From Myxococcales bacterium (GTDB taxonomy: Bacteria; Myxococcota_A; UBA9042), in NCBI GenBank assembly GCA_037441385.1, contig JBBISH010000006.1, positions 32,001 through 96,000 of the forward strand: a DNA stretch of 64,000 nt. The letters are read 5' to 3'. The position numbers and the translations under genes are program-made. Below, in pieces: positions 2,526 to 63,949 of this stretch. The notes under the pieces are model-generated. The model ran no database searches. It was not told where the DNA came from and was given only the letters and a program-made list of their open reading frames with translations. Each line of letters begins with the position of its first letter. Within the stretch, counting starts at the first letter, position 1.

Positions 2526-4439
2526 CTACAGGTACAGACTCCACCAGCGCAGCGTCGTCAACGCACCGAACACGTGCACTGTGCGCACCGGCCGACGTGG
2601 ATCGTATTTTGCCAGCAATTCGCCGTGATTACCTTGCTCTCGGCCCACTGCCGCGATGGCGCTGCGGAAATCGCCGGCCAGGCGGCGCAGGTGATCTCCA
2701 CCAAAGAACTCAAGGGCTTGCGGCGGTGCCAGCGTCAGTTCCTGCTCCAACCGGTCGACCAGGGCCAGCGGGTAGTCCAGGGTCGCCGGCGTGGGCATCG
2801 GCGCCTTGATCCGCTGCTCGCCCACCGACTTGGGCAGGCGGCGGCGGGCCAGGCTGCGCTCGATCGCCTTGTCGGGCAGGCCCTGGAACCCCGGGAAATT
2901 CCACTCGGGCGGCATGCGCAGGGCGATCTGCACCACCTCGTTCACCAAGAACGGAAAGCGCGCCTCGATCGACCAGGCCATGCCAAAGCGGTCGTTGTCG
3001 GCCAGCAGCCAGTGCAGGAACGTATGCGTGTACCAGGCTTGCACGGCGCGCACGCGGTCCGCGGGGCTGTGCCAGTAGGGCGCGAGCCAGCGCTCGACGG
3101 CGTCGTCTACGGCTTGATCCACCGCCGCCCAGTCCAGCAGCCCGCGTTGCTGCGCCGGACCCAGCAGTTCTTGGGTGCGCTCCAGCTTGCTGCGCCAAAG
3201 AGCTTTGAAATCACTGGGAGACTGTAGCGCTGGGCCACCTGGCTGCCAGCCGGCAAAGCGCGGGTAGTAGCCAAAAAACAGCTCGTCCGCGCCCTCGCCG
3301 CTCAAGGCCACCTTGCAGCCCGCATCGCGCAAAGTCTTGAAATTGGCCATCATGCCCAGCTTGCGCGGCTCCCAGCACGGTTCGTCAAAGGCCCGCACCA
3401 ACGGGTCGATACCGTGCAGCCAGGTCGGCAGCGGCAGGTGGGTCCAGCGGTGCTCCAAGTGGGTGCGGCCGGCGGCACGGAGGTGGTCGGCGACCTCGCG
3501 GGCGGCGCGGGCGTCATCGTCGCCGTGGTCGGCGCGGTAGGTGATGGTCGCCGCCGGCAGGATTTCGCTAGAGGTGGCCAGCAGCTCTGCGGTAATCAAG
3601 CTGGAGTCCAGCCCGCCCGACAGGCACGCCCCCAGCTTGGCCTGACCCATGCGCGTGGCCCGAACTGCCTGCGAAAACGCCGCCTCCAACGCGTCTTCGG
3701 CTTCGCGCGGGCTGGCAAAAGGCGCCTGCACGCCATCCAGCAGGTGCCACCAGCGGCCGGTCCGCAGCGAGCCGGCGCCTTGGGCCGGGCTGAACGACAG
3801 CCACGTGGCGGGCAGCAGGGCCGACAGGCCCGCAAATGCCGTGCGCTCGCCCAGGCCGCACCCCGACGGGAAGCCGGCACCCACCGCAAAGATCTCGGCC
3901 AGCCCCTGCGGATCCAGCTGACCGCGACCGCCGCTCAGGGCCAACAACCCCTTGGGTTCACTTGCAAAGACCAGGCCCTGGCCGCGCATCTGCCAATACA
4001 GGGGCTTGATGCCCAGGCGGTCGCGCACCAGCAGCAGCTCGCCGCCCAGCGCGTCCCACAGGGCGTAGGCAAACATGCCGTCGAACCGCTCGCAGGCGCG
4101 GCGCCCCCAGCGCGCATGAGCGGCCAGCACCACCTCGGCGTCGCCGTGGCTGCGGAAGTGCCAGTCTTCGCGCTCGAGTTGGTCACGCAACTCAAGGTAA
4201 TTGTAGATCTCGCCGTTGTAGGTCAGCCACCAGCGCCCATCCTTGCTGTGCAGGGGCTGCTGGCTGTGCTCCACGTCGACGATGGCCAGGCGGGCGCTAC
4301 CTAGCGTCGCCGCCCCCGCGCTGGTCAGTTGCTGCTGATCGGGTCCGCGGTGCCACAGGGCTCGCAGCATCGCCTGCACTTGCGTGTGCCGGTCCTCGCC
4401 AGGCAAACCAAGGTCCACGACGCCCGCAATCCCGCACAT
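2526..4439 (-). CDS. asnB: Asparagine synthetase B-like glutamine amidotransferase
   Basis: Ntn N-terminus MCGIAG (ATG 4439), HRGPD, NGEIYN, RDRLGIKPLY, PP-loop LSGGLDSS, SGEGADELFFGY and EARFPFL. Confidence 0.9.
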   Translation of the reverse strand: MCGIAGVVDLGLPGEDRHTQVQAMLRALWHRGPDQQQLTSAGAATLGSARLAIVDVEHSQQPLHSKDGRWWLTYNGEIYNYLELRDQLEREDWHFRSHGDAEVVLAAHARWGRRACERFDGMFAYALWDALGGELLLVRDRLGIKPLYWQMRGQGLVFASEPKGLLALSGGRGQLDPQGLAEIFAVGAGFPSGCGLGERTAFAGLSALLPATWLSFSPAQGAGSLRTGRWWHLLDGVQAPFASPREAEDALEAAFSQAVRATRMGQAKLGACLSGGLDSSLITAELLATSSEILPAATITYRADHGDDDARAAREVADHLRAAGRTHLEHRWTHLPLPTWLHGIDPLVRAFDEPCWEPRKLGMMANFKTLRDAGCKVALSGEGADELFFGYYPRFAGWQPGGPALQSPSDFKALWRSKLERTQELLGPAQQRGLLDWAAVDQAVDDAVERWLAPYWHSPADRVRAVQAWYTHTFLHWLLADNDRFGMAWSIEARFPFLVNEVVQIALRMPPEWNFPGFQGLPDKAIERSLARRRLPKSVGEQRIKAPMPTPATLDYPLALVDRLEQELTLAPPQALEFFGGDHLRRLAGDFRSAIAAVGREQGNHGELLAKYDPRRPVRTVHVFGALTTLRWWSLYL

Positions 4440-4479
4440 TTTTCCCCGCTTTGCCGGTCCTTGCGCGCCGTTGCCGTAC

Positions 4480-5538
4480 TCAGCGCGCCCAGCAGGCCGG
4501 CACGCAGTAGCGCGAGTGGCCCGAGTTTTCGCCACCGCCGCTCAGGTTGAAGTCCACGTCCACGCACAGGGCGTTCTTGCCGCAATCGTTGTCGTTTTGG
4601 CAGCCGGTGGTGCAGACGTCGGGCTTGCGGGTCACGCCCGCCAACTGCCGGCCGCATTGCTTGGCCCCGGCGTTGCCGGCGCAGTCGGCGTCTGTCTGGC
4701 AGCGCACGCCGACGCCGAGCGGATTGCCTTTGGGCACCACCCCGTTCTCGGCCTCACACCGATCTAGCTGCGCCGGCTGTTCTTTCCAGGCCCGGTGCTG
4801 CGGCTCGGGGCAGCGTGGCCAGCAGAGCGAAAACGTCTTGAGCGGCCACTGGTAGCCGCAGTAGCCGTAGCTGCCGCAGGTCGACTCGGCCCAGCACTCG
4901 CGCTCGCAAAAGTCTGGGCCGTCGGGGTTGAAGGTGGCCTGGCACGACTGGGCGCGCTTGCCTTTGCAGGTCTCGCCGTGCTTTTCGCGCGACTGCTTGT
5001 CGCAGCGCAGGCCGTACGCCTCGTCTGAAAAGGCGAAGCCACCCGCGCAGATCGCCGCGCCAAGGTGCTTGGGTTCGTCGCCGGCCGCGGGTCGCTCGGC
5101 GCGCAGGTCGCGGCAGTAGGGGTTGTCCTTCTCGCAGCCCGGTGTGTACTTCCAGGCCGTGCAGACGCTGGGGTAGCAGTGGCGCACGCCGTTGACGATG
5201 CCGCAGTAGGCGTTGGGGCCGCAGTCGGTGTCGTCGTCGCACATGCGCGAACACATCGGGGGCCGGCGCGGATTGACCAGGATGTCGCAGAAGTTGGCCC
5301 ACAAGCCCGCGCAATCCTCGCGCTTTTGGCACGGCTTGCCCACGCCCTTGTCGTTGACCTGGCCCGGAGCGCACTGGTTGCCGGCAAAATTGGCGTTGCC
5401 TTCCTTTTTGTGGGCCGCTTCGCGCTCTTCGGCCTCTTCGTCTTCGAGCCACGCGTGCGGACCCGTGCACGCGCTTGCGAGCGCAGCCAGGGCCGCGGCC
5501 GTGGCCAGCCAAAACGGCACGCGACCGTGCACTTGCAT
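4480..5538 (-). CDS. Cysteine-rich lipoprotein with three 10-Cys 'GVGKPC'-type repeats
   Basis: ATG 5538, signal peptide and lipobox (LAALASA-C). Three repeats contain GVGKPC, AYGLRC and GVGVRC. Confidence 0.8.
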   Translation of the reverse strand: MQVHGRVPFWLATAAALAALASACTGPHAWLEDEEAEEREAAHKKEGNANFAGNQCAPGQVNDKGVGKPCQKREDCAGLWANFCDILVNPRRPPMCSRMCDDDTDCGPNAYCGIVNGVRHCYPSVCTAWKYTPGCEKDNPYCRDLRAERPAAGDEPKHLGAAICAGGFAFSDEAYGLRCDKQSREKHGETCKGKRAQSCQATFNPDGPDFCERECWAESTCGSYGYCGYQWPLKTFSLCWPRCPEPQHRAWKEQPAQLDRCEAENGVVPKGNPLGVGVRCQTDADCAGNAGAKQCGRQLAGVTRKPDVCTTGCQNDNDCGKNALCVDVDFNLSGGGENSGHSRYCVPACWAR

Positions 5539-5561
5539 GGTGTCACCCCAGGGAGTTTGGA

Positions 5562-6278
5562 TCACGGCGCGGTGGTCGGCGTCGGCGCTGCCGCGACTCG
5601 GCACGCCAGCGGGGCGCACGAGGCCACCACGATTTCTTGGCCGTGCTCTTCGACTTTGCGCCGCCAGCAGAACGCGCCGCCGCCGCAGTCGCCGTCTTCT
5701 TTGCAGAGCATCGAGCAGTAGCCTGGCTTCTTGGGGTCCACGGCGCGCGGGCAGAAGTGCGCGGCCTTGGTGTCGCGGCAGTCGTCGTGTTTGGCGCAGA
5801 CCTTGCCCACGCCCAGGTCGGTGGCGCCGGCGGTGCAGTCGACGTTGACCTGCACGTCGGTCGCCAGCGGTTGCGCCAGGGTGGTGGCGCAGGCGTTGGG
5901 GACGCACAGCGAGCCACCGGTGCCGCGCGGGACGCAGGTTGCGCCGTCGCCGCACTCGGCCGGGTCGGCGCCGCTGCAGGCGCGGGTGCAGAAGTCGAAG
6001 CCCTTGGGGTCGCGCGAGCGCGGGCAGTCGATGGCCAGCTGGCCCTTGCAGTTCTCTTGCTTGTCGCAGGGTTTGCCCACGCCCAGTGCGTTGGCGGTGC
6101 CGGGGCAGACGGTCGAGGTGGTCGGCGCCGGCAGCTCAGCGGGCTTATCCACCGGCGCAGCGGTCGCCGCCGGGGCCGCAGCGGGCGCCGGAGCCGGAAC
6201 CTCTTTCTTGCCACAGGCCGCGACTGTCACCAGCGCCGCCAGGGCGCCCATCGCCATCCACGCTTTGTTGAGTTGCAT
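5562..6278 (-). CDS. Cysteine-rich lipoprotein with two 10-Cys 'GVGKPC' repeats
   Basis: GGAGG RBS, lipobox VTVAA-C, Pro/Ala linker, repeats LGVGKPC and LGVGKVC...CSMLC...CWRRK. Confidence 0.85.
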   Translation of the reverse strand: MQLNKAWMAMGALAALVTVAACGKKEVPAPAPAAAPAATAAPVDKPAELPAPTTSTVCPGTANALGVGKPCDKQENCKGQLAIDCPRSRDPKGFDFCTRACSGADPAECGDGATCVPRGTGGSLCVPNACATTLAQPLATDVQVNVDCTAGATDLGVGKVCAKHDDCRDTKAAHFCPRAVDPKKPGYCSMLCKEDGDCGGGAFCWRRKVEEHGQEIVVASCAPLACRVAAAPTPTTAP

Positions 6279-6403
6279 GATCGACCTCCTGGCGGCGACA
6301 TTAACACCAACACGGCAGCGGCGCCATGCCCCGAATTGTCAATTCTGACAAAAACCTGTCGACAGAGTGACGGCGGGCGGGGGACGCTTCAGGCCAAAAA
6401 GAA

Positions 6404-7900
6404 CTAGGCGCAAAGCGAAGTTGCGGGCAGTTCGTAGCTGCCGCGCCGCAAGTTCGCCAGCACTTCGCGCAACAGACCCGTGGGCACTTCGCTGAAGTTG
6501 AACCGCTCGGGCACCGCAAAGAAGTTGAAGCCGCGATCAATCCAGCTGCGGAACAGCGCTTCGTCAAAGCGGCCGGCGGCAATCGCTTCGCGGTAGTAGG
6601 GCGTGCCGGGCAGGTACAGCAGGTTGGACCAGCTGGCGGCGTCGATGAGCCCGCGCTGCAACCAGTTGTCGATTTGCCGCACGTCGTGGAACAGCTCGGC
6701 CACGGTCTGGCCCGGAAAGCCCGTCATCATGTACAGGTGCACCTTGAAGCCGGCTTGCCGCAGGGCCCGCCACAGCCCCTCGACCTGCTCCATCGTGTAG
6801 CGCTTGAACAGCTTCTTGTCGTCAAAGTGCGGCGAAAACGTCTCGAGCGAGATGGTGATGAGGTCGGTGCCGGCGCGCCGCAGCAGCTCGATGTGCTCCA
6901 CGTCGGGCTCTTTGCCGTTCATGTAGGTGGGCAAGAACGTGGAGTTTGGGTTGGTCAGCACCAACTCGCCGCCCACGTGGTCGCGGAAATCGGCGATCTT
7001 GCGCACCAGCTTGCGATCCTCGGGGTCCAGGCAGAAGTTTTCGCTGATGTTGTAAAAGATCCGTGCGCCGCGCTCGTGCAGCATGGCGATGTCGTCGAAC
7101 AGGCGGTCCACACCCACCGGCCGCATGTCTGGGGTAAAGTGCGAGCCGCAAAACCGGCAGGCCAGCGGGCAGCCGCGCGTCGGCAGCAAAGGCGCCGAGC
7201 GCAGGGCCGTAGCCGTCTGTTTGTACAGGTGATCCTTGGGCGATCCGTGGAGGATCACCTCTTTGTAGCGCCAGTCGCCGCTCGGCTTCCACAGCACCTG
7301 GTCCCACGCGAAGCGCCCACCCAGCTTGGCTTCGGGCCACGCCTTGGGGCTGGCGGGCTCCAGGTGGCCGGCGCGAAAGACGCCAGGAATCGAGCCGATG
7401 TCTTGATCACTTTGGCCGCTGAGGGCCCGCAGCAGCGCGACCAAGGTCTGCTCGCCCTCGCCTTGGATCAGCCAGTCCACCGCCGGGTTGCCCAAGTGCC
7501 AGTGGGGCATGAGCGACGCGTGGCGGCCGCCCAGGATCAGGGTCGCGCGCGGCAGGGTCCGCTTGACCAGGCTGGCCATGTGGTCCGTGGCCGGAAAGTC
7601 GCTGGTAAACATGGAGGTGAGCAGCACCACTTCGGGCGCCACGTCCTCTAGCCAAGCCGAAACGTCGGCGTCGTCCATGCCCTTGTAGAACAAATTGTCG
7701 TTCCACGGGCGGACCTTGTCGCCGTCCTCGCATGCCACGTCCAGGAAGTGCAGGTCCTGGTAACCGGCGTCCAGCAGAGCGCCCAAAATCGCCAGCCCGG
7801 TGGTCGACACGTTGAAGCTGTGCAGCGCGTCCAAGGCATCGCGCGGAACCAGTTGGCCCGGCTGAAGAAAGGCGACGCGCGGGTTGCGAGAAACGGGCAT
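6404..7900 (-). CDS. Cobalamin (B12)-binding radical SAM protein
   Basis: N-terminal B12-binding domain (ILGGRHAS, LIQGEGEQTL), TRGCPLACRFC (CX3CX2C), YMMTGFPGQT and YLPGTPYY. Confidence 0.9.
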   Translation of the reverse strand: MPVSRNPRVAFLQPGQLVPRDALDALHSFNVSTTGLAILGALLDAGYQDLHFLDVACEDGDKVRPWNDNLFYKGMDDADVSAWLEDVAPEVVLLTSMFTSDFPATDHMASLVKRTLPRATLILGGRHASLMPHWHLGNPAVDWLIQGEGEQTLVALLRALSGQSDQDIGSIPGVFRAGHLEPASPKAWPEAKLGGRFAWDQVLWKPSGDWRYKEVILHGSPKDHLYKQTATALRSAPLLPTRGCPLACRFCGSHFTPDMRPVGVDRLFDDIAMLHERGARIFYNISENFCLDPEDRKLVRKIADFRDHVGGELVLTNPNSTFLPTYMNGKEPDVEHIELLRRAGTDLITISLETFSPHFDDKKLFKRYTMEQVEGLWRALRQAGFKVHLYMMTGFPGQTVAELFHDVRQIDNWLQRGLIDAASWSNLLYLPGTPYYREAIAAGRFDEALFRSWIDRGFNFFAVPERFNFSEVPTGLLREVLANLRRGSYELPATSLCA

Positions 7901-8100
7901 GTCGGGTCACTCCAGCAGCGGCCTGCAGCCTTGGATGATACGGGGCGAGAGCGTGCCGCACAATCAACGCGCGGCCGTTCCAAACAGTTATGCAGACTTG
8001 CCAGCAGGCGCGCGCCACGCGGCCCGCCAGGCCGCTACTTGACAAGCGCAGCGCCGGCACCTTGCATGCGCGGACCGGCCGACTGCCGGGCGAGACCGAC

Positions 8101-9525
8101 ATGGGCGACCGCGGCCTTTCTTGGTTCGCGCCGTTTGGCGTGGATGCGCAGCTGATTTCCAGGGTCCTTGGCGAGGCGACTGCCCGCGGGGCCGATTTTG
8201 CCGACCTGTACTTCGAGCACCGCACCGTGCGTTCGCTGGGGCTGGAGGACGGCGCTGTCAACCGCGCTTACGCCGGCGTGGACCTGGGCGTGGGCGTCCG
8301 GGTGGTGCGCGGCGAGCAAACCGGCTACGCCTACAGCGAAGACCTGAGTCTCGAAGCGGTGTTGCAGGCTGCGCGCACGGCGGCCGCGATCGCCGACGGG
8401 TCGCCGATGCCGCGCACCGCCAACTTTGCCATCCAGCCGGTGGCGGACCGCTATCCGATTCGCCGGCCGTGGACCGAAGTCAGCACCGCGGACAAGTTGC
8501 CGATGCTCCGCGAGCTGGAAAAACAGGCGTTTGCCGCCGATCCGCGGGTCAAGAAGGTCAACCTGTCGTTTGCCGACGCGACCGGTGCGGTGCTGGTGGC
8601 GACCTCGGACGGCCGCCTGGCCTTTGACCTCCAGCCGATGACCTTGCTGTCGCTGTCGTGCACGGCCGAGCACCAGGGCCGGCGCGAGTCGGGCGGCTAC
8701 AACGTAGCGGCGCGCGACGACTTCAGTTTTTACGACCCGAGCCGTCTGGACCGGCTGGTTCACCGCGCCGTGGACCGCACCACCATCTTGTTCGACGCGG
8801 TGCCGGCGCCGGCCGGCGAGATGACTGTGGTCTTGGGTGCCGGCTCGTCAGGGATCCTGCTGCACGAAGCGATCGGCCATGGTCTAGAGGCCGACTTCAA
8901 TCGCAAGGGCGTGTCGATCTACGCGGACAAGCTGGGCAAGGCCATCGCCGGCCCGCTGGTGACCATCGTCGACGACGCCACCCTGCCCCACGCCCGCGGC
9001 TCGATCAACATCGACGACGAGGGCAACCCGGCCGGCTGCACCGAGCTGGTGGTGGGCGGCGTGCTGCAAGGCTACCTGCACGACCAGATCTCGGCCAAGC
9101 ACTACGGCGTGGCGCCCACCGGCAACGGCCGCCGCGAGGATTTTCGCACGCAGCCGCTGCCGCGCATGCGCTCGACCTACATGCGCCCGGGCCCGCACAG
9201 CCGCGACGAGATCATCGCCTCGGTCAAGAAGGGCATCTTCTGTGACCACTTTGCCAACGGCCAAGTGCAGATTGGTGCTGGCGATTTTACCTTCTACGTC
9301 CGCTCGGGCTGGCTCATCGAGGACGGCAAGCTGACCCAGCCGGTCAAGGACGTGAACCTGGTCGGCAATGGCCCCAAGGTCTTGGAACAGATCGACATGG
9401 TCGGCGACGACCTGCTGATCGACGAAGGTGGCTGGACCTGCGGCAAAGACGGCCAATCGGTGCCGGTCAGCCAGGGCATGCCCAGCGTGCGGGTGGGCAA
9501 GATGACGGTCGGCGGCCGCGGCTGA
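8101..9525 (+). CDS. tldD: TldD metalloprotease subunit
   Basis: GADFADLYFE, LLHEAIGHGLEADFNRKG (HExxGH), PRMRSTY and CGKDGQSVPVSQGMP. Confidence 0.93.
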   Translation: MGDRGLSWFAPFGVDAQLISRVLGEATARGADFADLYFEHRTVRSLGLEDGAVNRAYAGVDLGVGVRVVRGEQTGYAYSEDLSLEAVLQAARTAAAIADGSPMPRTANFAIQPVADRYPIRRPWTEVSTADKLPMLRELEKQAFAADPRVKKVNLSFADATGAVLVATSDGRLAFDLQPMTLLSLSCTAEHQGRRESGGYNVAARDDFSFYDPSRLDRLVHRAVDRTTILFDAVPAPAGEMTVVLGAGSSGILLHEAIGHGLEADFNRKGVSIYADKLGKAIAGPLVTIVDDATLPHARGSINIDDEGNPAGCTELVVGGVLQGYLHDQISAKHYGVAPTGNGRREDFRTQPLPRMRSTYMRPGPHSRDEIIASVKKGIFCDHFANGQVQIGAGDFTFYVRSGWLIEDGKLTQPVKDVNLVGNGPKVLEQIDMVGDDLLIDEGGWTCGKDGQSVPVSQGMPSVRVGKMTVGGRG

Positions 9526-9527
9526 GC

Positions 9528-54773: not shown

Positions 54774-55484
<711 letters not shown>

Positions 55485-55505
55485 GGTGGTCCTTTTCTGG
55501 GTCGG

Positions 55506-55778: not shown

Positions 55779-55800
55779 CTGGGGCTCCCTGCTGGATCGC

Positions 55801-56070: not shown

Positions 56071-56126
56071 GCGCGCGACTTTGGCACAAGCACGCCCCCA
56101 CCGCAAGCGGACACGGGCCCCCCGAT

Positions 56127-57676: not shown

Positions 57677-59110
57677 ATGAGCCGCAAGAATCGCCCGTAC
57701 CAGTTCTACGACACCACTGGCGCCGTGTGCAGCACCTGCCTGCGGCAGATCGAGGCCAAGGTGGTCATCGAAGCCGAACGCGTACTGCTGGACAAGTGGT
57801 GCCCGGTGCACGGCATGGAGCGCGTGTTGCTGGCCGATGACCCCGAGTGGTACCGCCTGGGCCGCGAGGTGTTTGTCAAACGGCCCGAGATGCCGGAAAA
57901 GTTCAGCACGCAGATGGAGTTCGGCTGCCCGTACGATTGCGGCCTGTGCCCGGACCACATGCAGCACTCGTGCCTGACCGTGCTCGAGGTCACCGACCAC
58001 TGCAACCTGCGCTGCCCCACCTGCTACGCCGCCTCGGGGCCCGAGCGCACCACCCACCGGCCGCTGACGACGGTGATCGCCATGCTGGACGCGGCGGTGC
58101 GCAATGAGGGCGAGGCCGACGTGGTGCAGATCTCGGGCGGCGAGCCGACCTTGCACCCCGACTTCTTTGCGATTTTGGACGCGGCGCGCGCGCGGTCGAT
58201 CCGCCACTTGATGGTCAACAGCAACGGTCTGCGCATCGCCCAGGACCAGGACTTTGTGACGCGGCTGGCCGAGTACAAGAAGGGCTTCGAGATCTATCTG
58301 CAATTCGACTCGCTGCAACGCGAGCCCCTGCTGGACCTGCGCGGCGCGGACCTGCGCTCGGTGCACAGCAAGGCCCTGGACAACCTGAACGCCGCTGGGA
58401 TCTCCACCACCCTGGTGATGACCGTCAAGCGAGGCGTCAACGACGGCGAGATCGGCGCGGTCCTCGACTACGCCCGCCAGCAACCCTGCGTGCGCGGTGT
58501 GACGCTGCAACCGGTGCAAGAGGCGGGGCGCTGCGATCACTTCGACAGCCGGCAACACCGCCTGACCGTGAGCGAATTGCGCCGCAAGATCGCCGAGCAG
58601 TTCCCGACCCTGACCTTGCGCGACATCGTGCCGGTGCCGTGCAACCCCGACACGCTGGCGATGGCCTATGCGATTCGCCAGGGGCCCGAGCTGGTGCCTC
58701 TGACCCGCTACCTGGACTACCAGACCTTGGTCGAGGGCGGCGGCAACACCATCGCTTTCGAGCGCGACCCGCAGTTGCGCGACAAGGTCTTCAGCCTGTT
58801 GTCGACGGGGCACTCGCCCGAGAGTCAGGCGAATTGTTTGTCGGATTTGCTGTGTTGCCTGCCGCAAGTCGCCGCGCCCAGCCACCTGGGCTACCAAGAC
58901 GTGTTCCGCGTGCTGATCGTGCAGTTCATGGACGCCCACAACCTGGACCTGCGGGCGCTGAAAAAGAGCTGTGTACACATGGTCCAGCCCGACGGGCGCA
59001 TGATCCCGTTCGAGAGCTACAACCTGCTGTACCGCGACGAGCGGGCGCAGACGCTGGCGCAATTGCGCAGCGAGCTCAAGGCTTTTCATCAACTCCGCTT
59101 GGGTCGCTAG
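57677..59110 (+). CDS. Radical SAM protein of Tes/MJ0619-like architecture
   Basis: N-terminal CSTC...CPVH and GCPYDCGLCPDH; radical SAM CNLRCPTC; QISGGEPT and YLQFD; C-terminal KKSCVH...DGRMIPF. Confidence 0.85.
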   Translation: MSRKNRPYQFYDTTGAVCSTCLRQIEAKVVIEAERVLLDKWCPVHGMERVLLADDPEWYRLGREVFVKRPEMPEKFSTQMEFGCPYDCGLCPDHMQHSCLTVLEVTDHCNLRCPTCYAASGPERTTHRPLTTVIAMLDAAVRNEGEADVVQISGGEPTLHPDFFAILDAARARSIRHLMVNSNGLRIAQDQDFVTRLAEYKKGFEIYLQFDSLQREPLLDLRGADLRSVHSKALDNLNAAGISTTLVMTVKRGVNDGEIGAVLDYARQQPCVRGVTLQPVQEAGRCDHFDSRQHRLTVSELRRKIAEQFPTLTLRDIVPVPCNPDTLAMAYAIRQGPELVPLTRYLDYQTLVEGGGNTIAFERDPQLRDKVFSLLSTGHSPESQANCLSDLLCCLPQVAAPSHLGYQDVFRVLIVQFMDAHNLDLRALKKSCVHMVQPDGRMIPFESYNLLYRDERAQTLAQLRSELKAFHQLRLGR

Positions 59111-59115
59111 CGCAG

Positions 59116-59826
59116 CTACTTCGGTTTGTTGCAGCAGATCGCGGGCGCGCATGAGCCGATCACGAATTCCACGCCATATTCCACGGTTTTGCGTCGCCAG
59201 CACAGGGCGTTGTCGCCGCATTCCGAGTCGTCGGTGCACAGCATCGAGCACCAGGCTGGCGCGTCGGGACGGATCGCCACGGGGCAAGTCTTGGCGGCCA
59301 GGTTGCCCGCGCAGTCGCTCATGGTCGTGCAGGGCTTGCCCACGCCAAAGTTGTTGACGCTTCCCGAGTTGCAGGGCTGCGTGCAGGTGGCGCCGTCGGG
59401 AATGTCGATGGAATACGTCGCGGCGCACTGGACCGGCATGCAAACCTTGGGCTCCTTGGGGCCGCGCGGCACGCAGACGCCGCCGTCGCCGCATTCGTTC
59501 GGCATGCCAAAGCAGTACTGGGCGCAGAAGTGCGGGGCGCCGTTGCCCAGGTTGTTCAAACAGGTCACGGCGTCCTGGCCGTAGCAGTCTTCTGGCTTGT
59601 TGCAGGGCTTGCCCAAGCCGCTGCTGTTGACGGGCGTGGCGGCGCAGGGCGGGCCCACGGCAGCGTCGCCAGCGTCCAACGAAGTATCTGATTTTGAGTT
59701 GGTTGCGCTGTCCGTGTCCGCGCTGGCGTCTACGGCGCCGCTCGTAGCCGGAGTGGTGGCGGGGCTGCTGCAGGCCAGCGCAAGCCATGTGGCCACGGCG
59801 GCGAGCGGGCGGATCGGGTACGGCAT
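59116..59826 (-). CDS. Cysteine-rich lipoprotein with two 10-Cys 'GVGKPC' repeats (paralog of 5562-6278)
   Basis: Lipobox WLALA-C; repeats GLGKPC...ECGDG.CVPRG and GVGKPC...CSMLC...CWRRK...SCAP. Confidence 0.85.
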   Translation of the reverse strand: MPYPIRPLAAVATWLALACSSPATTPATSGAVDASADTDSATNSKSDTSLDAGDAAVGPPCAATPVNSSGLGKPCNKPEDCYGQDAVTCLNNLGNGAPHFCAQYCFGMPNECGDGGVCVPRGPKEPKVCMPVQCAATYSIDIPDGATCTQPCNSGSVNNFGVGKPCTTMSDCAGNLAAKTCPVAIRPDAPAWCSMLCTDDSECGDNALCWRRKTVEYGVEFVIGSCAPAICCNKPK

Positions 59827-59994: not shown

Positions 59995-61362
59995 ATGCGC
60001 GTAGCCCTGGTCAATCCGCCGTGGATGTACAAGCGCCTGTATACGCACGGGATCTACCCGCCCTACGGCATCTTGATGCTGGCGACGCAGCTCAAGCTGG
60101 CCGGCCACGACGTGCACCTCCTGGACGCCAACGCGCTGGAGTGGAGCGAGGACGAGACCCGCGCCCGCATTGCCGCGTGCGACCCCGATGTACTGGGAAT
60201 TACAATTTTTACCGATGGGTTTGGCTTTGCCGAACGCACCGGGCCGTGGTGGAAGCGCCATTCCGGCGGCAAACCGCTGCTCATTGGCGGGCCTCTGGTG
60301 TCGGGCGCGCCGCAGACGCTGCTTCGGGCCAGTCAGGCGGACGTGGCGGCAATCGGTGAGTCGTTTGTCTCGGGGCCGCAGCTCGTGGCGGCGCTCGAAA
60401 AAGGCACACCGCTGAGCGAGGTTGCGGGTCTGATCCTGCACCACGCCGACGGCAGCTTGCAGCCCACCGGACCCACGCCGGCCTGGGGCGACCTGGACAC
60501 GCTGCCCCTGCCCGACTGGGACCTGTTGCCGGTGGAGCTGTACCTGCAGGGCGGCATGCAGCCGTTCTTCAAGAAGCGCAGGATCAATCGCTACTTGTCG
60601 ACCATCACCACACTGGGCTGCGCCTGGCGCTGCAGTTTTTGCCAGGTGCCCGACCTGTACCCAGGCGTGCGGGCCCGCGATCCCGAGCGGGTGGCCGACG
60701 AGATCGCCCTGTATCGCGAAAAGTATTCCATTGGGGGAATGTACTTTCGCGACGACATCCTGTTCCGTCCCGGCAAGATCGCCGAAGCACTGGGTCGCAA
60801 GGTTCCGGGCCTGCCCTGGAGTTGTCTGCTGCGCGCCGACATGATGACCGACGCCGTGCTGGCCAAGATGGCGGCGGGTGGCTGCGTGGAGATCCGCGTG
60901 GGGTTCGAGAGCGGCGACGACTTGGTGCTGTCGCTGGCCAACAAGAAGACCGAGGTGGCGCAGAATCGCCGCTGCATCGAGCTGGCGCGCAAGCACGGCA
61001 TCGCCATCTCGGGCTTTCTGATCGTAGGTTTGCCCGGCGAGACGGAAGAGAGCCTGGCGGCCACCGAGCGGTTCGTGCGCGAGATGCAGGTCCGCGTTTC
61101 GGTTCACTTTCCTTTGCCGCTCCCTGGCACGGACCTGTACCGTCAGACGCTGGCGCGCGGCGAGATCGGCGACGAGGCGGCCCTGTTGCGCAAGTTTTCG
61201 GAGCCGCAGCTGCCCGGCGCGGTCCTGCAACCGCCGCCCATCAACCAGTGCGATCTGCCCGAGGACGTGCTGGTGCACTGGGCCATGCGGCTTGCCGCCG
61301 CTGGTCAGGCCGCCGATGATGCGGCGAGCGCGCCCACTGGCCACGCCGACGCGCCGTTTTGA
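59995..61362 (+). CDS. Cobalamin (B12)-binding radical SAM protein
   Basis: MRVALVNPP, PPYG, LLDAN, IGGPL, GE; TTLGCAWRCSFC; GFESG, IVGLPGET and PLPGTDLY. Confidence 0.92.
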   Translation: MRVALVNPPWMYKRLYTHGIYPPYGILMLATQLKLAGHDVHLLDANALEWSEDETRARIAACDPDVLGITIFTDGFGFAERTGPWWKRHSGGKPLLIGGPLVSGAPQTLLRASQADVAAIGESFVSGPQLVAALEKGTPLSEVAGLILHHADGSLQPTGPTPAWGDLDTLPLPDWDLLPVELYLQGGMQPFFKKRRINRYLSTITTLGCAWRCSFCQVPDLYPGVRARDPERVADEIALYREKYSIGGMYFRDDILFRPGKIAEALGRKVPGLPWSCLLRADMMTDAVLAKMAAGGCVEIRVGFESGDDLVLSLANKKTEVAQNRRCIELARKHGIAISGFLIVGLPGETEESLAATERFVREMQVRVSVHFPLPLPGTDLYRQTLARGEIGDEAALLRKFSEPQLPGAVLQPPPINQCDLPEDVLVHWAMRLAAAGQAADDAASAPTGHADAPF

Positions 61363-61378
61363 GCCCGCACGAGGTGCC

Positions 61379-63949
61379 GTGAGCCTTCCTTTGCCGACCC
61401 TGGACCAACTCCGCCACGACTTGGGCGCGTTGGGGCTCGATCGCATGGCCCGAGCGGGGTTGCGGCGCGATCCGGGGCAGTACAACCTGCTGGTGCACAT
61501 CGTGCCGCCCGAGGTGGCCAAGGATCACGCCGCCAGCGACCTGGTGGCCGATCGCCTGGCCGAGCCGCCGGGGCCGCTGTGCCTCTATGTCCACATCGCC
61601 GCTTGCACCGGCCGCTGCACCTTTTGCCACTACGCCATCGAGGTCAACCCGAGCGACGAGCAGACTGAGCGGTACCTACGGGCGCTGGAGACGGAGATCA
61701 CGGCCCGCTGGTCCGGCTTGGACGAGCGCAGCCCGGTCCGCTCGCTGATGATCGGCGGCGGCACCCCCACCTACCTCAGCGCCAAGCAACTTGACAGACT
61801 TTTCAAGCACTTGCATGGCACGGTTCGCCTGGATCCCGGCATCGAGCTGACCATCGAGGGCTCGCCCGAGACCATCACCCGCGACAAGCTGCAGGTGCTG
61901 AAGGACCACGGCGTCAACCGCCTGAGCCTGGGCATCCAGAGCTTTGACGACGCCATGCTGCGGCTGCTGGGCCGGCGCCACGACCAGCGCGGGGCCCTGC
62001 ACAGCCTGGAGCTGGCGAGGGAAATCGGCTTCGATCACCTGAACTTGGACCTGATCTACGCCTTGCCGGGCCAGACCCTGGAGGGGTGGCTGGCCGACGT
62101 GGCCCGCGCCGCCGACTTTGGCATCGACAGCCTGACCACCTACCACCTGCGCAAGCGGCCCGACACGGTCATCTCGCGCCACGCCTCGCCCGCCGAAGAC
62201 CTGAATCTTTTGATGCATGTCGGGGCACTGCGGGTGCTGGAGGAGCGCGGTTACCGGCAGTCGCTGGTCGACTACTTCTGCAAGCGGGAGTTGGAGACCG
62301 CCCAGGTCCAGGCCCGCGACAAATGGCGCGACATGCAGCCGGTCGACGGGGTGGGGCTAGAGGCCTGTTCGCGCCGCCGTGGGGTGATCGCTTTTGATCA
62401 CGCCGAGTTTTCGACGTGGATCGCCGCGGTGGAAAACGGCGACGGGCCGCGCGGCTGGCCGCTCGCGCATGGGCGGCTGCTGTCGATCGAAGAACAGATG
62501 GCGCAGCAGGCCATGTTCGGCCTCAAGGTCCTGGATCCGGGCGGTGGTCTGGACAAGGCGGCGTTTGCCCGCGACTTCGGCAAGACTGTGGACGAGGTTT
62601 TTGGCAGCGTTCCCAGCGAGTTGATGGACGCCGGCGCGCTGACCGACACCGGGACGCACCTGCAGTTCACGCCCGGCGGGACGCTGCTGGGCGACGAAGT
62701 GTGCCAGCGCTTCTACACCGAGGAGCTGCGCCGCAAGATGGTGTCGCGGGTGCGGGTGCGCGCCGAGGGCAGCACTGTGGCCGTGCCCCGGGGCAGCGAG
62801 CGGCAGGCGATTGACTCGGCCGAGGTCTTGGTCATTGGCGCCGGCGTGGCCGGCCTGCACACCGCCGCGGCGCTGGCGGCGGATCTGGGCGCGGGCGTGC
62901 TGCTGGTCGAGGCCGAGGGCGAGATCGGCCGTGGCGCTACGGCCGCCGCTCTGGGCGGCTTTCGCACGCAATTTGCCGATCCGCTGCTGGCCGAGCTGAC
63001 GGCGCGGTCGCTGCAGTACTATCAGAAGCGGGCGCTGGGACCGGACGGCCATCGCCTGGGCCTGCAGCGCGACGGCTACGTGTTCTTGGTGGCCACTGCG
63101 GCGGACCGCGCGCTCTGCGAGGCTCAGGCCACGATCGCCCGCCAGCACGGGCAGGCGCTGCAGTGGCTGGAGCCCAAGCAACTGGCTGATCTGATTCCAG
63201 GTATCGCCACGGACGACCTGCTGGGCGCCTGGTACGGGCCCGACGACGGCCGCTTGGACCCGCACGGGGTGGCTTGGCTGGCGCGGCGCGATCTGCTCGA
63301 GCGCGGCGGCCGGCTGCGGCTCGACACGCCCGTCCAAAAGCTGAGGCTGCACAAGGGCTCGGTGGTGGGCGTGGACACGGCGCGCGGCTGGATCGCGGCG
63401 CGGCAGGTGGTGCTGTGCACGGGTGCGGCTACGCCCCAGCTGCTGCAGCAAGCCGGCGTGACGCTGCCCCTGGCGGTGGACAAGCGCCGCATCTTGATGG
63501 CCCAAGGCGCGGATCTTCCAGGCTATCCTGGGCCGCTGGTGCTGGGGCAGACGCCGCCGCTGTACTTCCGGCCCGAATCCAACGGTCTGCTGGTGTCGGC
63601 GCGCGAGCTGAGCAACGACGACGACTTGCCCTGGGACGCGGTGGTCCGCGAGCGGGCGATGGCGCGGCTTCCAGTGCTGAAAACTGCCCGCTGGATCCCG
63701 GGTTGGAGTGGTCAGCAGACCCACAGCCGCGACGGCCGGCCGCTGGTGGGGCCGTGCCCAGGGTTGGAGGGCGCGTTCCTATGCACTGCGTTGGGCGGCG
63801 CGGGGATCATGCACGCTCCGGCGGTGGCGACCCTGGCGGCGGGTTGGGTGCTGGGTACCGCCGATGGCGCGCTGGCGGAGGAGCTGGATCCGCGGCGGGA
63901 CCTTGGTCGCGGTCTGACACAGCTGCGCGATTTGCCGCCAGTAGGGTGA
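61379..63949 (+). CDS. HemN-like (class C) radical SAM domain fused to an FAD-dependent oxidoreductase (DAO/sarcosine oxidase-beta family)
   Basis: GTG 61379 after GAGG. LYVHIAACTGRCTFC, GGGTPT, NRLSLGIQSF and DLIYALPGQT, then VIGAGVAG, GATAAALG, DGRLDP, VVLCTG, DGRPLVG and GAGIMHAP, all in one open frame. Confidence 0.88.
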   Translation: MSLPLPTLDQLRHDLGALGLDRMARAGLRRDPGQYNLLVHIVPPEVAKDHAASDLVADRLAEPPGPLCLYVHIAACTGRCTFCHYAIEVNPSDEQTERYLRALETEITARWSGLDERSPVRSLMIGGGTPTYLSAKQLDRLFKHLHGTVRLDPGIELTIEGSPETITRDKLQVLKDHGVNRLSLGIQSFDDAMLRLLGRRHDQRGALHSLELAREIGFDHLNLDLIYALPGQTLEGWLADVARAADFGIDSLTTYHLRKRPDTVISRHASPAEDLNLLMHVGALRVLEERGYRQSLVDYFCKRELETAQVQARDKWRDMQPVDGVGLEACSRRRGVIAFDHAEFSTWIAAVENGDGPRGWPLAHGRLLSIEEQMAQQAMFGLKVLDPGGGLDKAAFARDFGKTVDEVFGSVPSELMDAGALTDTGTHLQFTPGGTLLGDEVCQRFYTEELRRKMVSRVRVRAEGSTVAVPRGSERQAIDSAEVLVIGAGVAGLHTAAALAADLGAGVLLVEAEGEIGRGATAAALGGFRTQFADPLLAELTARSLQYYQKRALGPDGHRLGLQRDGYVFLVATAADRALCEAQATIARQHGQALQWLEPKQLADLIPGIATDDLLGAWYGPDDGRLDPHGVAWLARRDLLERGGRLRLDTPVQKLRLHKGSVVGVDTARGWIAARQVVLCTGAATPQLLQQAGVTLPLAVDKRRILMAQGADLPGYPGPLVLGQTPPLYFRPESNGLLVSARELSNDDDLPWDAVVRERAMARLPVLKTARWIPGWSGQQTHSRDGRPLVGPCPGLEGAFLCTALGGAGIMHAPAVATLAAGWVLGTADGALAEELDPRRDLGRGLTQLRDLPPVG

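What the first reader, a model, noticed from the sequence alone, without database searches (positions are those of the whole stretch)
2526..63949. Candidate new system: 10-Cys 'GVGKPC' lipoproteins repeatedly paired with cobalamin radical SAM enzymes at two separate loci
Seen: all three proteins carrying this domain (4480-5538, 5562-6278, 59116-59826) lie in clusters with the only two B12-radical SAM genes in the window. The gene at 6404-7900 heads the first cluster, and 59995-61362 is divergent from the third lipoprotein. The two loci are about 51 kb apart with mostly housekeeping genes between them. Together they add an AsnB-type amidotransferase, a HemN-like/FAD-oxidase fusion and a Tes-like radical SAM. 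Established: B12 (class B) and HemN-like (class C) radical SAMs, AsnB-like enzymes and FAD amine oxidases are typical tailoring enzymes of RiPP and other secondary-metabolite pathways. Inference: this is one split or duplicated pathway. The lipoproteins could be modified substrates, carriers or display scaffolds, or binding/immunity proteins for the product. I do not recognise a described system with this composition.
Basis: partly seen in the sequence, partly recalled or inferred. Interest (0 to 1): 0.82.

Follow-up and report, generated by a model that had tools for sequence, protein, structure and literature searches.

The report
Cysteine-knot lipoproteins tied to radical-SAM enzymes
Three exported, cysteine-rich lipoproteins of a previously undescribed family really do travel with two vitamin-B12-dependent radical enzymes in a few uncultured myxobacteria, and probably work outside the cell as partners of propeller-shaped lipoproteins, but what the whole gene set does is still unknown.

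Summary
Three lipoproteins carry seven copies of an ~80-residue, 10-Cys domain with no Pfam, NCBIfam or PDB sequence match. They flank the only two B12-radical SAM genes of the contig.

The link is not chance. Among the 37 genomes of the order, 8 carry the domain. Orthologues of both B12-rSAMs and of the HemN-like/FAD-oxidase fusion each occur in 7 of those 8 and in 0 of the other 29. A YVTN beta-propeller lipoprotein and an XDH-type molybdoenzyme show the same 7-of-8, 0-of-29 pattern. Two neighbouring control genes do not: NnrS and the Tes-like rSAM.

In other genera both B12-rSAMs lie in one enzyme cluster, so this genome holds a fragmented version of it.

The steadiest neighbour of the lipoproteins is a beta-propeller lipoprotein, not a radical SAM. 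It lies within 5 kb at 6 of 9 loci outside the genus. A natural fusion exists, and a complex model scores ipSAE 0.64 against 0.00 for controls.

Best reading: an envelope complex of propeller plus cystine-knot-like subunit, coupled to a cytoplasmic, rSAM-rich pathway of unknown product. Modification of the lipoproteins before export remains a serious rival. The Tes-like rSAM and TldD/PmbA are not part of the set. Function is unproven.

The parts
6404..7900 (-). B12-binding radical SAM enzyme 1 (498 aa), first gene of locus 1
   Evidence: PF02310 and PF04055. All NCBIfam equivalogs are far below cut-off; the best is BchE at 74.5 bits against 481. Orthologues of at least 67% identity are found in 7 of the 8 domain-bearing genomes and 0 of the 29 others.
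5562..6278 (-). Lipoprotein with two 10-Cys domains (238 aa)
   Evidence: Translation, domain alignment, no Pfam or NCBIfam hit. It lies 126 bp downstream of rSAM 1. One sigma70-like site falls in that gap at 6362-6335, where 0.3 sites are expected by chance.
4480..5538 (-). Lipoprotein with three 10-Cys domains (352 aa)
   Evidence: Translation. hmmsearch finds 3 domains at 69.8-89.4 bits. It lies 24 bp after the previous gene.
2526..4439 (-). AsnB-type glutamine amidotransferase (ORF runs to 4535; probable start MCGIAG at 4439)
   Evidence: GATase_7 plus Asn_synthase domains. TIGR01536 scores 324.3 bits against a cut-off of 267.1. It is adjacent to the 3-domain lipoprotein in two genera, g1 and g2.
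59116..59826 (-). Lipoprotein with two 10-Cys domains (ORF to 59853; Met at 59826)
   Evidence: Translation. AlphaFold2 model has domain pLDDT of 80-98 per 10-residue block, mostly above 90. It is divergent from rSAM 2, 168 bp away.
59995..61362 (+). B12-binding radical SAM enzyme 2 (455 aa)
   Evidence: PF02310 and PF04055. The best NCBIfam hit is HpnJ at 123 bits against 577.6. Orthologues of at least 61% identity are found in 7 of 8 and 0 of 29 genomes. The orthogroup has only 23 clusters in 5.8 billion proteins.
61316..63949 (+). HemN-like radical SAM fused to a ThiO/DAO-type FAD oxidase (ORF from 61292; overlaps the end of rSAM 2)
   Evidence: Radical_SAM, HemN_C and DAO domains. STM4012 family scores 222.5 against 380 and HemW 189.5 against 205.4. 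Orthologues are found in 7 of 8 and 0 of 29 genomes.
57677..59110 (+). Tes/TrsS-like radical SAM with Zn ribbon: a neighbour, NOT part of the conserved set
   Evidence: Pfam. TrsS scores 310.9 against 490 and Tes 257.3 against 450. It is absent at this site in G005. It occurs in 3 of the 8 domain-bearing genomes against 8 of the 29 others.

Best explanation
The three genes encode exported lipoproteins, tethered by a flexible linker and built from tandem modules with five probable disulfides each and a partly cystine-knot-like shape. On the cell envelope they serve as the small partner subunit of YVTN-type seven-bladed beta-propeller lipoproteins.

This envelope pair belongs to a gene set of roughly 15 genes restricted to one lineage. 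The cytoplasmic part comprises:
- two B12-radical SAM enzymes;
- a HemN-like/ThiO-like fusion;
- a three-subunit XDH-type molybdoenzyme;
- a PF12831 flavoprotein;
- a GGACT-like protein;
- a HisC/CobD-like aminotransferase with a HAD hydrolase;
- an HpcH-like protein and an LdpA-like Fe-S protein.

This part most likely makes or transforms a small nitrogen-containing molecule, a cofactor or ligand, that the envelope complex binds or uses.

In other genera the enzymes form one cluster. In this genome the cluster is broken into at least five loci, and each B12-rSAM fragment has stayed next to a lipoprotein gene.

Shown: the domains, co-occurrence, clustering and the fusion. Supported by a model only: physical binding. 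Inferred: the disulfides, the location, the coupling and any chemistry.
For: (1) Phyletic pattern. Of the 37 genomes of the order, 8 carry the domain at E<=1e-10. Orthologues of each of the following are found in 7 of those 8 and in 0 of the other 29:
- rSAM 1;
- rSAM 2;
- the HemN/DAO fusion;
- beta-propeller A;
- the XDH Mo subunit.
Two neighbouring control genes do not follow the pattern: NnrS is in 5 of 8 against 13 of 29, and the Tes-like rSAM is in 3 of 8 against 8 of 29.

(2) One cluster elsewhere. G019 and G022 carry this gene set in one cluster, with gene order differing between them: FAD_oxidored, GGACT, XDH, rSAM 2, HemN/DAO, a hypothetical/HAD gene, aminotransferase, LdpA_C, HpcH-like, rSAM 1. 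In G013 everything, including a 5-domain Cys lipoprotein, lies within 20 kb. The remaining genes are present in G000 on contigs C5, C32 and C180.

(3) Propeller link.
- A beta-propeller lipoprotein (family A or its paralogue B) lies within 5 kb at 6 of 9 Cys-gene loci outside genus g1.
- In G022 the two ORFs as called overlap by 19 nt.
- Every propeller orthologue has a lipobox.
- P0033 is a natural fusion of Cys domains with this propeller family (hhalign probability 99.7%, E 2.7e-25).
- The complex model scores ipSAE 0.64 (three runs: 0.64, 0.59, 0.70) against 0.00 for the best of 3 controls. The runs share at least 73% of contacts, and the partner's pLDDT is at least 83. In the tool's calibration this mark was reached by 116 of 157 solved complexes and 2 of 215 mismatched pairs.
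- The propeller's predicted interface includes invariant residues D66, K84, P319, E322, G385, G390 and P395.

(4) Fold. The AlphaFold2 model is confident in both domains, at 80-98 pLDDT per 10-residue block and mostly above 90. The best structural matches are small disulfide-knotted peptides: Z 4.3, rmsd 1.3 A over 32 of 32 residues, and Z 3.8, rmsd 1.9 A over 35 aligned residues.

(5) More distant domain homologues also sit beside or are fused to extracellular proteins: FG-GAP/ASPIC proteins, a weak Sortilin-like match, and Cu-monooxygenase-like proteins.

(6) In G000 contig C32 the order is lipoprotein B, FAD_oxidored, GGACT, propeller A, all on one strand. This repeats the pattern of lipoprotein genes interleaved with cytoplasmic enzyme genes.
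Against: - No product, substrate or transporter has been identified.
- In this genome no propeller gene lies near either window locus; both propeller genes are on contig C32.
- The tightest enzyme core (XDH, rSAM 2, HemN/DAO) occurs on 8 metagenome loci with no Cys domain in the flanks held. Those flanks are short, and 2 of the loci are syntenic with G017.
- G011 has the lipoproteins, the propellers, AsnB, XDH, FAD_oxidored and GGACT, but none of the three rSAMs was found there. That genome is 84% complete and only 3.5 Mb.
- The 8 genomes are kin, so the co-occurrence may reflect only a few gain or loss events.
- No shared upstream motif, riboswitch or expression data supports co-regulation.
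- The complex model is a prediction made with my own shallow alignments of 8 and 20 rows.
- The operon order rSAM, lipoprotein, lipoprotein, AsnB fits an enzyme-substrate arrangement at least as well.
Confidence: 0.42

Rival explanations
1. The lipoproteins are the substrates. Before Sec export and lipidation, the B12-rSAMs, the HemN-like/FAD fusion and AsnB install modifications such as C-methylation, cross-links, amidation or a protein-derived cofactor. The matured small subunit then docks on the beta-propeller. The logic is that of quinohemoprotein amine dehydrogenase.
For: - The gene order rSAM 1, lipoprotein, lipoprotein, AsnB has gaps of 126, 24 and 41 bp.
- AsnB, Cys3 and Cys2a are adjacent in a second genus as well.
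- A HemN-like paralogue abuts Cys genes in two further genera: G019 and G022, 76% identical to each other.
- In G013 the order HemN/DAO, propeller, Cys gene is on one strand.
- Precedents in print: QhpD (rSAM) plus QhpG (flavoprotein) mature the small gamma subunit of QHNDH in the cytoplasm (PMC7876137, passages read). A SPASM rSAM cross-links a Cys-rich protein encoded next to it (PMC13692751, abstract read). RiPP precursors with lipoprotein signal peptides are modified in the cytoplasm and then lipidated (PMC13056109, passages read).
- rSAM 2 has a weak match to the methyl-coenzyme M reductase glutamine C-methyltransferase family, at 93.7 bits against a cut-off of 360.
Against: - No SPASM, RRE or MNIO domain was found.
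- Most of the conserved enzymes (XDH, aminotransferase, aldolase-like, HAD, GGACT) are small-molecule types.
- Apart from Cys, only Gly, Ala and Pro are invariant across the 7 copies, and the Lys of GVGKPC is present in 5 of 7.
- Copy number ranges from 1 to 8 stretches per protein.
- Distant homologues exist with no rSAM within 10 kb.
- An rSAM lies within 5 kb at only 3 of 9 loci outside genus g1.
- G011 shows no rSAM orthologue.
Confidence: 0.3
2. There is no functional link. The lipoproteins and the enzymes are merely co-inherited accessory genes of one sub-lineage, and their adjacency in this genus is a rearrangement accident.
For: - All carriers belong to a single family of uncultured Myxococcota.
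- The PFOR...TldD interval is a variable spot. In G001 it holds four unrelated genes.
- Enzyme-only contigs exist.
Against: - Two independent loci in this genome each pair a Cys gene with a different B12-rSAM.
- Four different rSAM lineages abut Cys genes in different genera.
- Neighbouring control genes do not share the phyletic pattern.
- Only 3 of 11 genomes of the same genus carry any of the six families, and those three carry all or nearly all of them.
Confidence: 0.13
3. The propeller and Cys-rich lipoproteins capture cobamides outside the cell to feed the B12-dependent radical SAM enzymes. This would be analogous to the Bacteroides surface lipoproteins BtuG and BtuH.
For: - The pairing is specifically with B12-dependent enzymes.
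- Surface lipoproteins that bind B12 are known. BtuH was seen only in the search listing and abstract start of PMC8941943 and PMC13616437. That BtuG is a propeller is recalled, not checked.
- The conserved set includes a CobD-like aminotransferase or decarboxylase: TIGR01140 scores 180.9 bits against 290.55.
Against: - No cobalamin riboswitch, nor any Rfam family, was found in the window, L015, L020, L042 or L014. The 10 further loci gave only one unrelated sRNA match.
- The genome has 8 other candidate B12-rSAMs with no such neighbours.
- The first-look searches of the 29 genomes without the lipoproteins still returned 2-45 candidates per genome for the two B12-rSAM queries.
- No BtuB or BtuFCD genes lie adjacent.
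Confidence: 0.05
4. The radical SAM enzymes tailor membrane lipids or hopanoids, and the lipoproteins are unrelated envelope proteins.
For: Weak NCBIfam similarity to HpnJ, HpnR and the ladderane-type lipid B12-rSAM. A Tes-like rSAM and an acyl-CoA thioesterase are neighbours in this window.
Against: - All these scores are far below cut-off: HpnJ 123 against 577.6, TIGR04072 108.5 against 360, Tes 257 against 450.
- The Tes-like gene does not co-occur with the set.
- The conserved partners are XDH, an aminotransferase and GGACT, and no lipid genes are among them.
Confidence: 0.05

Closest known systems
Quinohemoprotein amine dehydrogenase system (qhpABCDEFG)
   Same: It combines a periplasmic beta-propeller subunit with a small Cys-containing subunit, and is encoded together with a cytoplasmic radical SAM enzyme and a flavoprotein that act before export (PMC7876137, passages read).
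   Different: - The propeller here scores 34.3 bits against the 223.2 cut-off of the QhpB family.
- The Cys proteins match no family.
- The rSAMs are of B12 and HemN type, not SPASM type.
- Export would use a lipoprotein signal, not a leader peptide with an ABC exporter.
- No haem subunit, protease or exporter is conserved.
- The Cys content suggests five disulfides per module, not thioethers.
Crp-type systems: a Cys-rich protein cross-linked by an adjacent SPASM radical SAM enzyme (PMC13692751, abstract and outline read)
   Same: Genes for Cys-rich proteins lie directly beside radical SAM genes. The proteins are full-sized, not short peptides.
   Different: - The enzyme class differs, with no SPASM or RRE detected.
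- The proteins here carry lipoprotein signals.
- A large small-molecule-type enzyme set co-occurs with them.
DAG-RiPPs: RiPP precursors routed through the lipoprotein pathway (PMC13056109, passages read)
   Same: A signal peptidase II signal plus lipobox on a protein encoded next to cytoplasmic tailoring enzymes. This shows that modification before export is feasible.
   Different: Those systems use MNIO enzymes and a CPxCGxG motif. No MNIO gene and no such motif is found here.
Methylamine dehydrogenase: a beta-propeller heavy subunit with a small disulfide-rich, cofactor-bearing light subunit
   Same: The proposed architecture is the same: a propeller plus a small disulfide-rich subunit in the periplasm.
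   Different: - The Cys proteins have no Pfam hit at all, so no light-chain match.
- No MADH heavy chain is among the 60 rows shown of 75 PDB sequence matches for the propeller. The best matches are a YVTN S-layer propeller and hydrazine synthase beta.
- No mauG-like gene is conserved.
Inhibitor cystine-knot (knottin) mini-proteins
   Same: Residues 169-205 of the model superpose on a cystine-knot peptide (Z 4.3, rmsd 1.3 A, 32 of 32 residues, 34% identity). Residues 167-206 superpose on a knottin carboxypeptidase inhibitor (Z 3.8, rmsd 1.9 A).
   Different: - The module is about 80 residues with 10 Cys and has an added beta-hairpin.
- Z values are low, and Foldseek finds nothing at E<=0.001.
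- There is no evidence of protease inhibition.
Class B (cobalamin-dependent) and class C (HemN-like) radical SAM enzymes
   Same: The domain architecture and the CxxxCxxC motif match.
   Different: The enzymes match no characterised subfamily. Every curated equivalog scores far below its cut-off. The HemN-DAO fusion is confined to about 16 database clusters.

Membership tests
Class B (B12-binding) radical SAM superfamily | N-terminal B12-binding domain plus a radical SAM core with CxxxCxxC | tested here: met
   PF02310 scores 53.9 and 55.7 bits against a cut-off of 32.1. PF04055 scores 70.7 and 76.2 bits. CxxxCxxC is present in both ORFs.
Named B12-rSAM equivalogs (BchE, HpnJ, HpnR, PhpK, BzaD, RiPP C-methyltransferases, MCR Gln methyltransferase) | Score at or above the curated NCBIfam cut-off | tested here: not met
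   The best scores are BchE at 74.5 against 481 for the first enzyme and HpnJ at 123.1 against 577.6 for the second. All other families score lower relative to their cut-offs.
HemN/HemW/STM4012 (class C radical SAM) | Radical SAM plus HemN_C domains, and an equivalog cut-off reached | tested here: inconclusive
   The domains are present. STM4012 scores 222.5 against 380, HemW 189.5 against 205.4 and HemN 164.5 against 324.95. The protein is a superfamily member of no assigned subfamily.
Asparagine synthase (glutamine-hydrolysing), AsnB | N-terminal Cys nucleophile, GATase plus Asn_synthase domains, TIGR01536 cut-off reached | tested here: met
   MCGIAG at the probable start. Domains found. TIGR01536 scores 324.3 against 267.1. 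The lasso cyclase family scores 152.4 against 525 and is not met. The biochemical substrate was not tested.
Quinohemoprotein amine dehydrogenase system | QhpB-family propeller, QhpC gamma subunit, SPASM rSAM QhpD | tested here: not met
   TIGR03907 scores 34.3 against 223.2 for the propeller. The Cys proteins have no NCBIfam or Pfam hit. The rSAMs show only B12-binding or HemN_C accessory domains.
RiPP / protein-modifying rSAM maturase systems (Crp, ranthipeptide, sactipeptide types) | SPASM and/or RRE domain in the enzyme, with the substrate gene adjacent | tested here: not met
   No SPASM or PqqD-like hit at E<=0.01. RiPP rSAM families are below cut-off: ApyD 94.6 against 750 and rSAM_ocin_1 67.9 against 281.85. 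Adjacency is met in genus g1. Modification itself cannot be tested with these tools.
DAG-RiPP (lipoprotein-pathway RiPPs) | SPII signal with lipobox on the precursor; MNIO enzyme adjacent | tested here: not met
   Lipobox-like signals are present, read by eye. No MNIO family appears among the Pfam hits of the genes scanned in the window, at E<=0.01 or 1e-4.
Tetraether lipid synthase Tes / TrsS (the neighbouring rSAM at 57677-59110) | NCBIfam cut-off reached | tested here: not met
   TrsS scores 310.9 against 490 and Tes 257.3 against 450.
Knottin / inhibitor cystine-knot fold | Three-disulfide knot topology | tested here: inconclusive
   VIA-align gives Z 4.3 and 3.8 over 32-35 residues. Foldseek finds no match at E<=0.001. 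Disulfide connectivity could not be read from the model output.
YVTN beta-propeller lipoproteins (the partner protein, outside the window) | YVTN repeat; seven-bladed propeller | tested here: met
   TIGR02276 beta_rpt_yvtn scores 46.8 against 27.85. The PDB profile search gives 1l0q, an S-layer YVTN propeller, at E 1.2e-33.
Cobamide-capture lipoproteins (BtuG/BtuH-like) | Cobalamin riboswitch or btu transport genes in the locus | tested here: not met
   No cobalamin riboswitch was found at gathering threshold in 15 sources. Homology to BtuG or BtuH was not tested.

The most novel reading that the evidence does not exclude
This is a new kind of protein-maturation system. Two cobalamin-dependent radical SAM enzymes, a HemN-like/flavin-oxidase fusion and (in some genera) an AsnB-type amidotransferase modify tandem cystine-knot-like lipoprotein precursors in the cytoplasm. 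The precursors are then exported, lipidated and docked onto YVTN beta-propeller lipoproteins. The result is a previously unknown envelope enzyme or receptor carrying a protein-derived cofactor or unusual C-methylated residues. B12-rSAM chemistry on lipoproteins has not been described in the papers I searched.
Probability: 0.28. Interest if true: 0.85.

Novelty: categorically new. Interest (0 to 1): 0.64.

Why it matters
If the coupling is real, it defines three things:
- an unannotated 10-Cys domain family, with 184 representatives at E<=0.001 among 1.84 billion proteins;
- two orphan B12-radical SAM subfamilies and a unique HemN-FAD oxidase fusion;
- a two-component envelope lipoprotein complex.

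All are confined to a few uncultured Myxococcota.

The set offers a compact, contiguous cluster of about 17 kb in relatives (G019, G022) that could be expressed to find new radical SAM chemistry. That chemistry would be either a new small molecule or cofactor, or the first B12-rSAM modification of a lipoprotein.

The limits are a narrow host range, no cultured host, and a function that rests on inference.

Tried and rejected
- **The search for related loci.** Resent with one protein, it found only two near relatives.
- **Metagenome scan with the rSAM 2 alignment.** It gave 8 loci, none with a Cys domain. Most flanks are short, so this says little either way.
- **Structure and sequence look-ups for the Cys proteins.** Foldseek against the PDB found no match at E<=0.001. 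A PDB sequence search with the Cys-protein profile found nothing at E<=10. The ESM Atlas gave only unnamed Myxococcota clusters at 0.81-0.85, below the trust level.
- **Rfam.** No family was found in the window and 4 loci. One unrelated sRNA match appeared in 10 further loci (one search was over the size limit).
- **Promoter and terminator scans.** Counts were at chance level, apart from one sigma70-like site upstream of the 2-domain gene.
- **Shared upstream motifs.** I looked for shared 11-mers or sigma54 sites among 8 upstream regions of the G000 loci and found nothing convincing.
- **Expression.** No RNA holder was listed for 2400-8100.
- **TGA codons inside HemN/DAO matches.** The match ends lie one codon (G005) and four codons (G013) beyond the ORF bounds I called, so I take these to be flanking stop codons, not selenocysteine. 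This rests on comparing coordinates.
- **TldD/PmbA as a RiPP protease.** The pair is adjacent only within this genus.
- **The AsnB near the distant paralogue on contig C24.** It is separated from the paralogue by an aspartokinase/homoserine dehydrogenase gene and is probably housekeeping.
- **Earlier notes of this scan on the same genome.** None bore on this finding.
- **Literature.** Searches for the composition found no description of such a system. Subscription-only journals were not searched.


Full report
**Observation**

The window is about 68% G+C. It is contig C6:32001-96000 of a 6.6-Mb, 221-contig genome that is 91% complete. Record titles of its two nearest relatives call them uncultured Myxococcales or Deltaproteobacteria MAGs.

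Each begins with a hydrophobic signal ending in a lipobox-like A-C, followed by an Ala/Pro/Thr/Asp-rich linker. After the linker come 3, 2 and 2 copies of a module of about 80 residues.

Aligning the seven copies gives ten invariant Cys plus invariant G14, A28, G56 and P73, with the consensus N-x-x-G-V-G-K-P-C. None of the three proteins hits Pfam or NCBIfam at E<=0.01.

The flanking enzymes are as described:
- two proteins with B12-binding plus Radical_SAM domains;
- an AsnB that passes the TIGR01536 cut-off;
- a fusion of Radical_SAM, HemN_C and DAO domains;
- an rSAM with an HMPTM-type zinc ribbon.

Every specific rSAM family in NCBIfam scores far below its curated cut-off. The genes between the loci are housekeeping. 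Downstream of the window, locus 2 ends at the fusion gene, followed by an AAA ATPase gene and then rpsB-tsf-pyrH-frr.

**Is it chance?**

An HMM of the seven copies finds strong matches in the whole genome only in these three genes. Weaker matches lie on contigs C24 (5e-11), C61 and C71. The C24 and C71 paralogues have no rSAM neighbours.

The genome has 15 B12-binding matches, and ten of those ORFs also carry CxxxCxxC. Two separate lipoprotein loci each touching one of ten such genes is very unlikely by chance. My rough estimate is about 1e-5.

**Comparative genomics**

The order contains one family of 37 species genomes, and 8 of them carry the domain at E<=1e-10. These are G000, G005 and G007 (3 of the 11 genomes of the genus) and one genome each from five other genera.

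Orthologues have nearly the same distribution:

| Gene family | In the 8 with the domain | In the other 29 |
|---|---|---|
| rSAM 1 (>=67% identity) | 7 | 0 |
| rSAM 2 (>=61% identity) | 7 | 0 |
| HemN/DAO fusion (>=51% identity) | 7 | 0 |
| YVTN beta-propeller lipoprotein A | 7 | 0 |
| XDH-type Mo subunit | 7 | 0 |
| AsnB | 4, plus one 39% copy | 0 |
| NnrS (control neighbour) | 5 | 13 |
| Tes-like rSAM (control neighbour) | 3 | 8 |

The one genome missing differs between families:
- G011 (84% complete) lacks the three rSAMs.
- G019 lacks the propeller.
- G007 lacks XDH.

The Tes-like gene is also missing at this site in G005.

Outside this family, a 401-genome sample of the phylum gave only two moderate domain hits and no rSAM 2 orthologue. 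Only 4 to 13 candidates per genome were scored in that sample.

In the large protein collections every component is rare:
- 184 domain representatives at E<=0.001, of which 43 are at E<=1e-10, among 1.84 billion proteins;
- 23 clusters for rSAM 2;
- about 16 clusters for the fusion, several with the same longest-contig lengths as the rSAM 2 clusters.

The carriers are kin, so these counts overstate independence.

**One system, fragmented here**

In G019 and G022 the enzymes form one cluster. Its members, in an order that differs between the two genomes, are: PF12831 FAD oxidoreductase, GGACT, XDH (FAD/2Fe-2S and Mo subunits), rSAM 2, HemN/DAO, a hypothetical/HAD gene, a HisC/CobD-like aminotransferase, an LdpA-like Fe-S protein, an HpcH-like protein, and rSAM 1.

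In G013 all of this plus a five-domain Cys lipoprotein lies within 20 kb. Metagenome contigs repeat the core XDH, rSAM 2, HemN/DAO.

G000 holds the missing members on other contigs:
- XDH on C5;
- lipoprotein B, FAD_oxidored, GGACT and propeller A on C32;
- HpcH-like and LdpA_C at the start of C180, which probably continues into the aminotransferase and HAD genes at the end of C32.

After this fragmentation each B12-rSAM piece still sits beside a Cys-lipoprotein gene. I read this as selection for linkage.

In a same-genus genome without the system (G001), PFOR and TldD remain on one contig with four unrelated genes between them.

**What the lipoproteins do**

There are 9 strong Cys-gene loci outside this genus. 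Within 5 kb of them:
- an rSAM lies at 3 loci (G013, and a HemN-like paralogue in G019 and G022);
- some member of the enzyme set or AsnB lies at 6 loci;
- a beta-propeller lipoprotein lies at 6 loci. This is either family A or a paralogous family B of about 450-500 aa with no Pfam hit.

Further evidence ties the Cys module to the propeller:
- All propeller orthologues have lipoboxes.
- In G022 the propeller and 2-domain Cys ORFs as called overlap by 19 nt.
- One metagenomic protein, P0033, fuses Cys domains to this same propeller family (hhalign probability 99.7%, E 2.7e-25).
- A complex prediction for the G022 pair scored ipSAE 0.64 (three runs: 0.64, 0.59, 0.70) against 0.00 for the best of three controls. 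At least 73% of contacts were shared between runs, and the partner's pLDDT was at least 83. In the tool's calibration 116 of 157 solved complexes and 2 of 215 mismatched pairs reached the mark. My own shallow alignments were used, so those counts hold only roughly.
- The predicted interface uses invariant propeller residues (D66, K84, P319, E322, G385, G390, P395) and both Cys modules, including positions next to the GVGKPC loops.

The AlphaFold2 model of the third lipoprotein is confident in both modules, at 80-98 pLDDT per 10-residue block and mostly above 90, and disordered in the linker. Foldseek finds no PDB match at E<=0.001. The wide aligner's best rows are cystine-knot mini-proteins (Z 4.3 and 3.8) and WAP-type inhibitors (Z about 2), which are weak leads only.

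More distant domain homologues lie beside FG-GAP/ASPIC proteins, or are fused to proteins with a weak Sortilin-like match or to Cu-monooxygenase-like proteins. None has an rSAM within 10 kb.

I conclude that the module is an extracytoplasmic, disulfide-rich partner domain for propeller-type proteins. Confidence in that part is about 0.7.

**How the envelope pair relates to the enzymes**

Two readings remain.

(a) The cytoplasmic set makes or transforms a small molecule that the envelope complex binds or uses. The enzyme types favour this: XDH-type hydroxylase, aminotransferase, aldolase-like, HAD, GGACT and flavoproteins. So do enzyme-only contigs, the lack of SPASM or RRE domains, and the absence of any invariant modifiable residue other than Cys.

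(b) The lipoproteins are modified before export. Favouring this:
- the operon order rSAM, lipoprotein, lipoprotein, AsnB, conserved in part in a second genus;
- HemN-like genes abutting Cys genes in three further genera;
- published precedents, namely QHNDH maturation by an rSAM plus a flavoprotein (PMC7876137, passages), rSAM cross-linking of an adjacent Cys-rich protein (PMC13692751, abstract) and cytoplasmic modification of precursors that carry lipoprotein signals (PMC13056109, passages).

I put (a) at about 0.4 and (b) at about 0.3. Mere co-inheritance gets about 0.13, cobamide capture about 0.05 and lipid tailoring about 0.05.

No riboswitch, shared upstream motif or RNA data helped decide.

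**Comparison with known systems and novelty**

The set fails the tested defining features of QHNDH, of Crp- or RiPP-type maturase systems and of DAG-RiPPs. It also fails the cut-offs of Tes/TrsS and every named B12-rSAM equivalog. The methylamine dehydrogenase comparison rests on recalled architecture and only partial tests (see Closest known systems). Details are in the membership table.

My four literature searches on the composition found no description. Subscription-only journals were not covered.

I therefore rate the set as lying outside known kinds of system. Its function is inferred, its host range is narrow, and the strongest mechanistic evidence (the complex) is a model.

Noticed in passing
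window 7990-10907 (+): A TldD/PmbA metalloprotease pair lies divergent from rSAM 1. It is conserved next to rSAM 1 only within this genus. In G001 it sits 9.4 kb from PFOR with unrelated genes between, which suggests a variable insertion spot.
   Followed up: partly
window 11542-14459 (+): A PhnD-like periplasmic binding protein (PF12974) is immediately followed by a hybrid histidine kinase, overlapping it by 4 nt. This is probably a sensor pair.
   Followed up: no
window 54774-55904 (-): A class II aldolase lies next to an EutN/CcmL-type microcompartment vertex protein. G005 has two EutN-like ORFs here. No shell hexamer genes were seen in the stretch I annotated.
   Followed up: no
G012:C64:1917-3296 (relative, not fetched): The homologue of the Tes/TrsS-like radical SAM carries one in-frame TGA. 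The best-matching NCBIfam family is a (seleno)protein family, so this could be a selenocysteine form.
   Followed up: no
L042:8058-8631 (G000:C32, upstream of the beta-propeller A gene): This is an unusually long intergenic region (about 570 bp) that looks AT-richer than the flanking genes by eye (composition not measured), inside the block lipoprotein B, FAD_oxidored, GGACT, propeller. No Rfam family was found in it.
   Followed up: partly
L045:1946-5998 (G000:C180, -): A 1351-aa ORF full of short C-x-C-rich repeats (e.g. DDxNxCTxDxCD) lies next to the HpcH-like/LdpA-like genes. It is a different Cys-rich family from the one studied here.
   Followed up: no
L017:12655-12700 (G017:C44, +): An Acido-Lenti-1 sRNA match (39.9 bits against a gathering score of 37) lies about 2 kb from a Cys lipoprotein gene.
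   Followed up: no
G000:C24:10139-11344 (-) and G000:C71:3435-4100 (+): These are distant paralogues of the 10-Cys module in other lipoproteins. Neither has a radical SAM neighbour. The C71 copy lies near a multihaem cytochrome and a molybdopterin oxidoreductase.
   Followed up: partly
window 50980-53028 (+): A 682-aa ORF with coding-like GC3 (0.89) has no Pfam hit.
   Followed up: no
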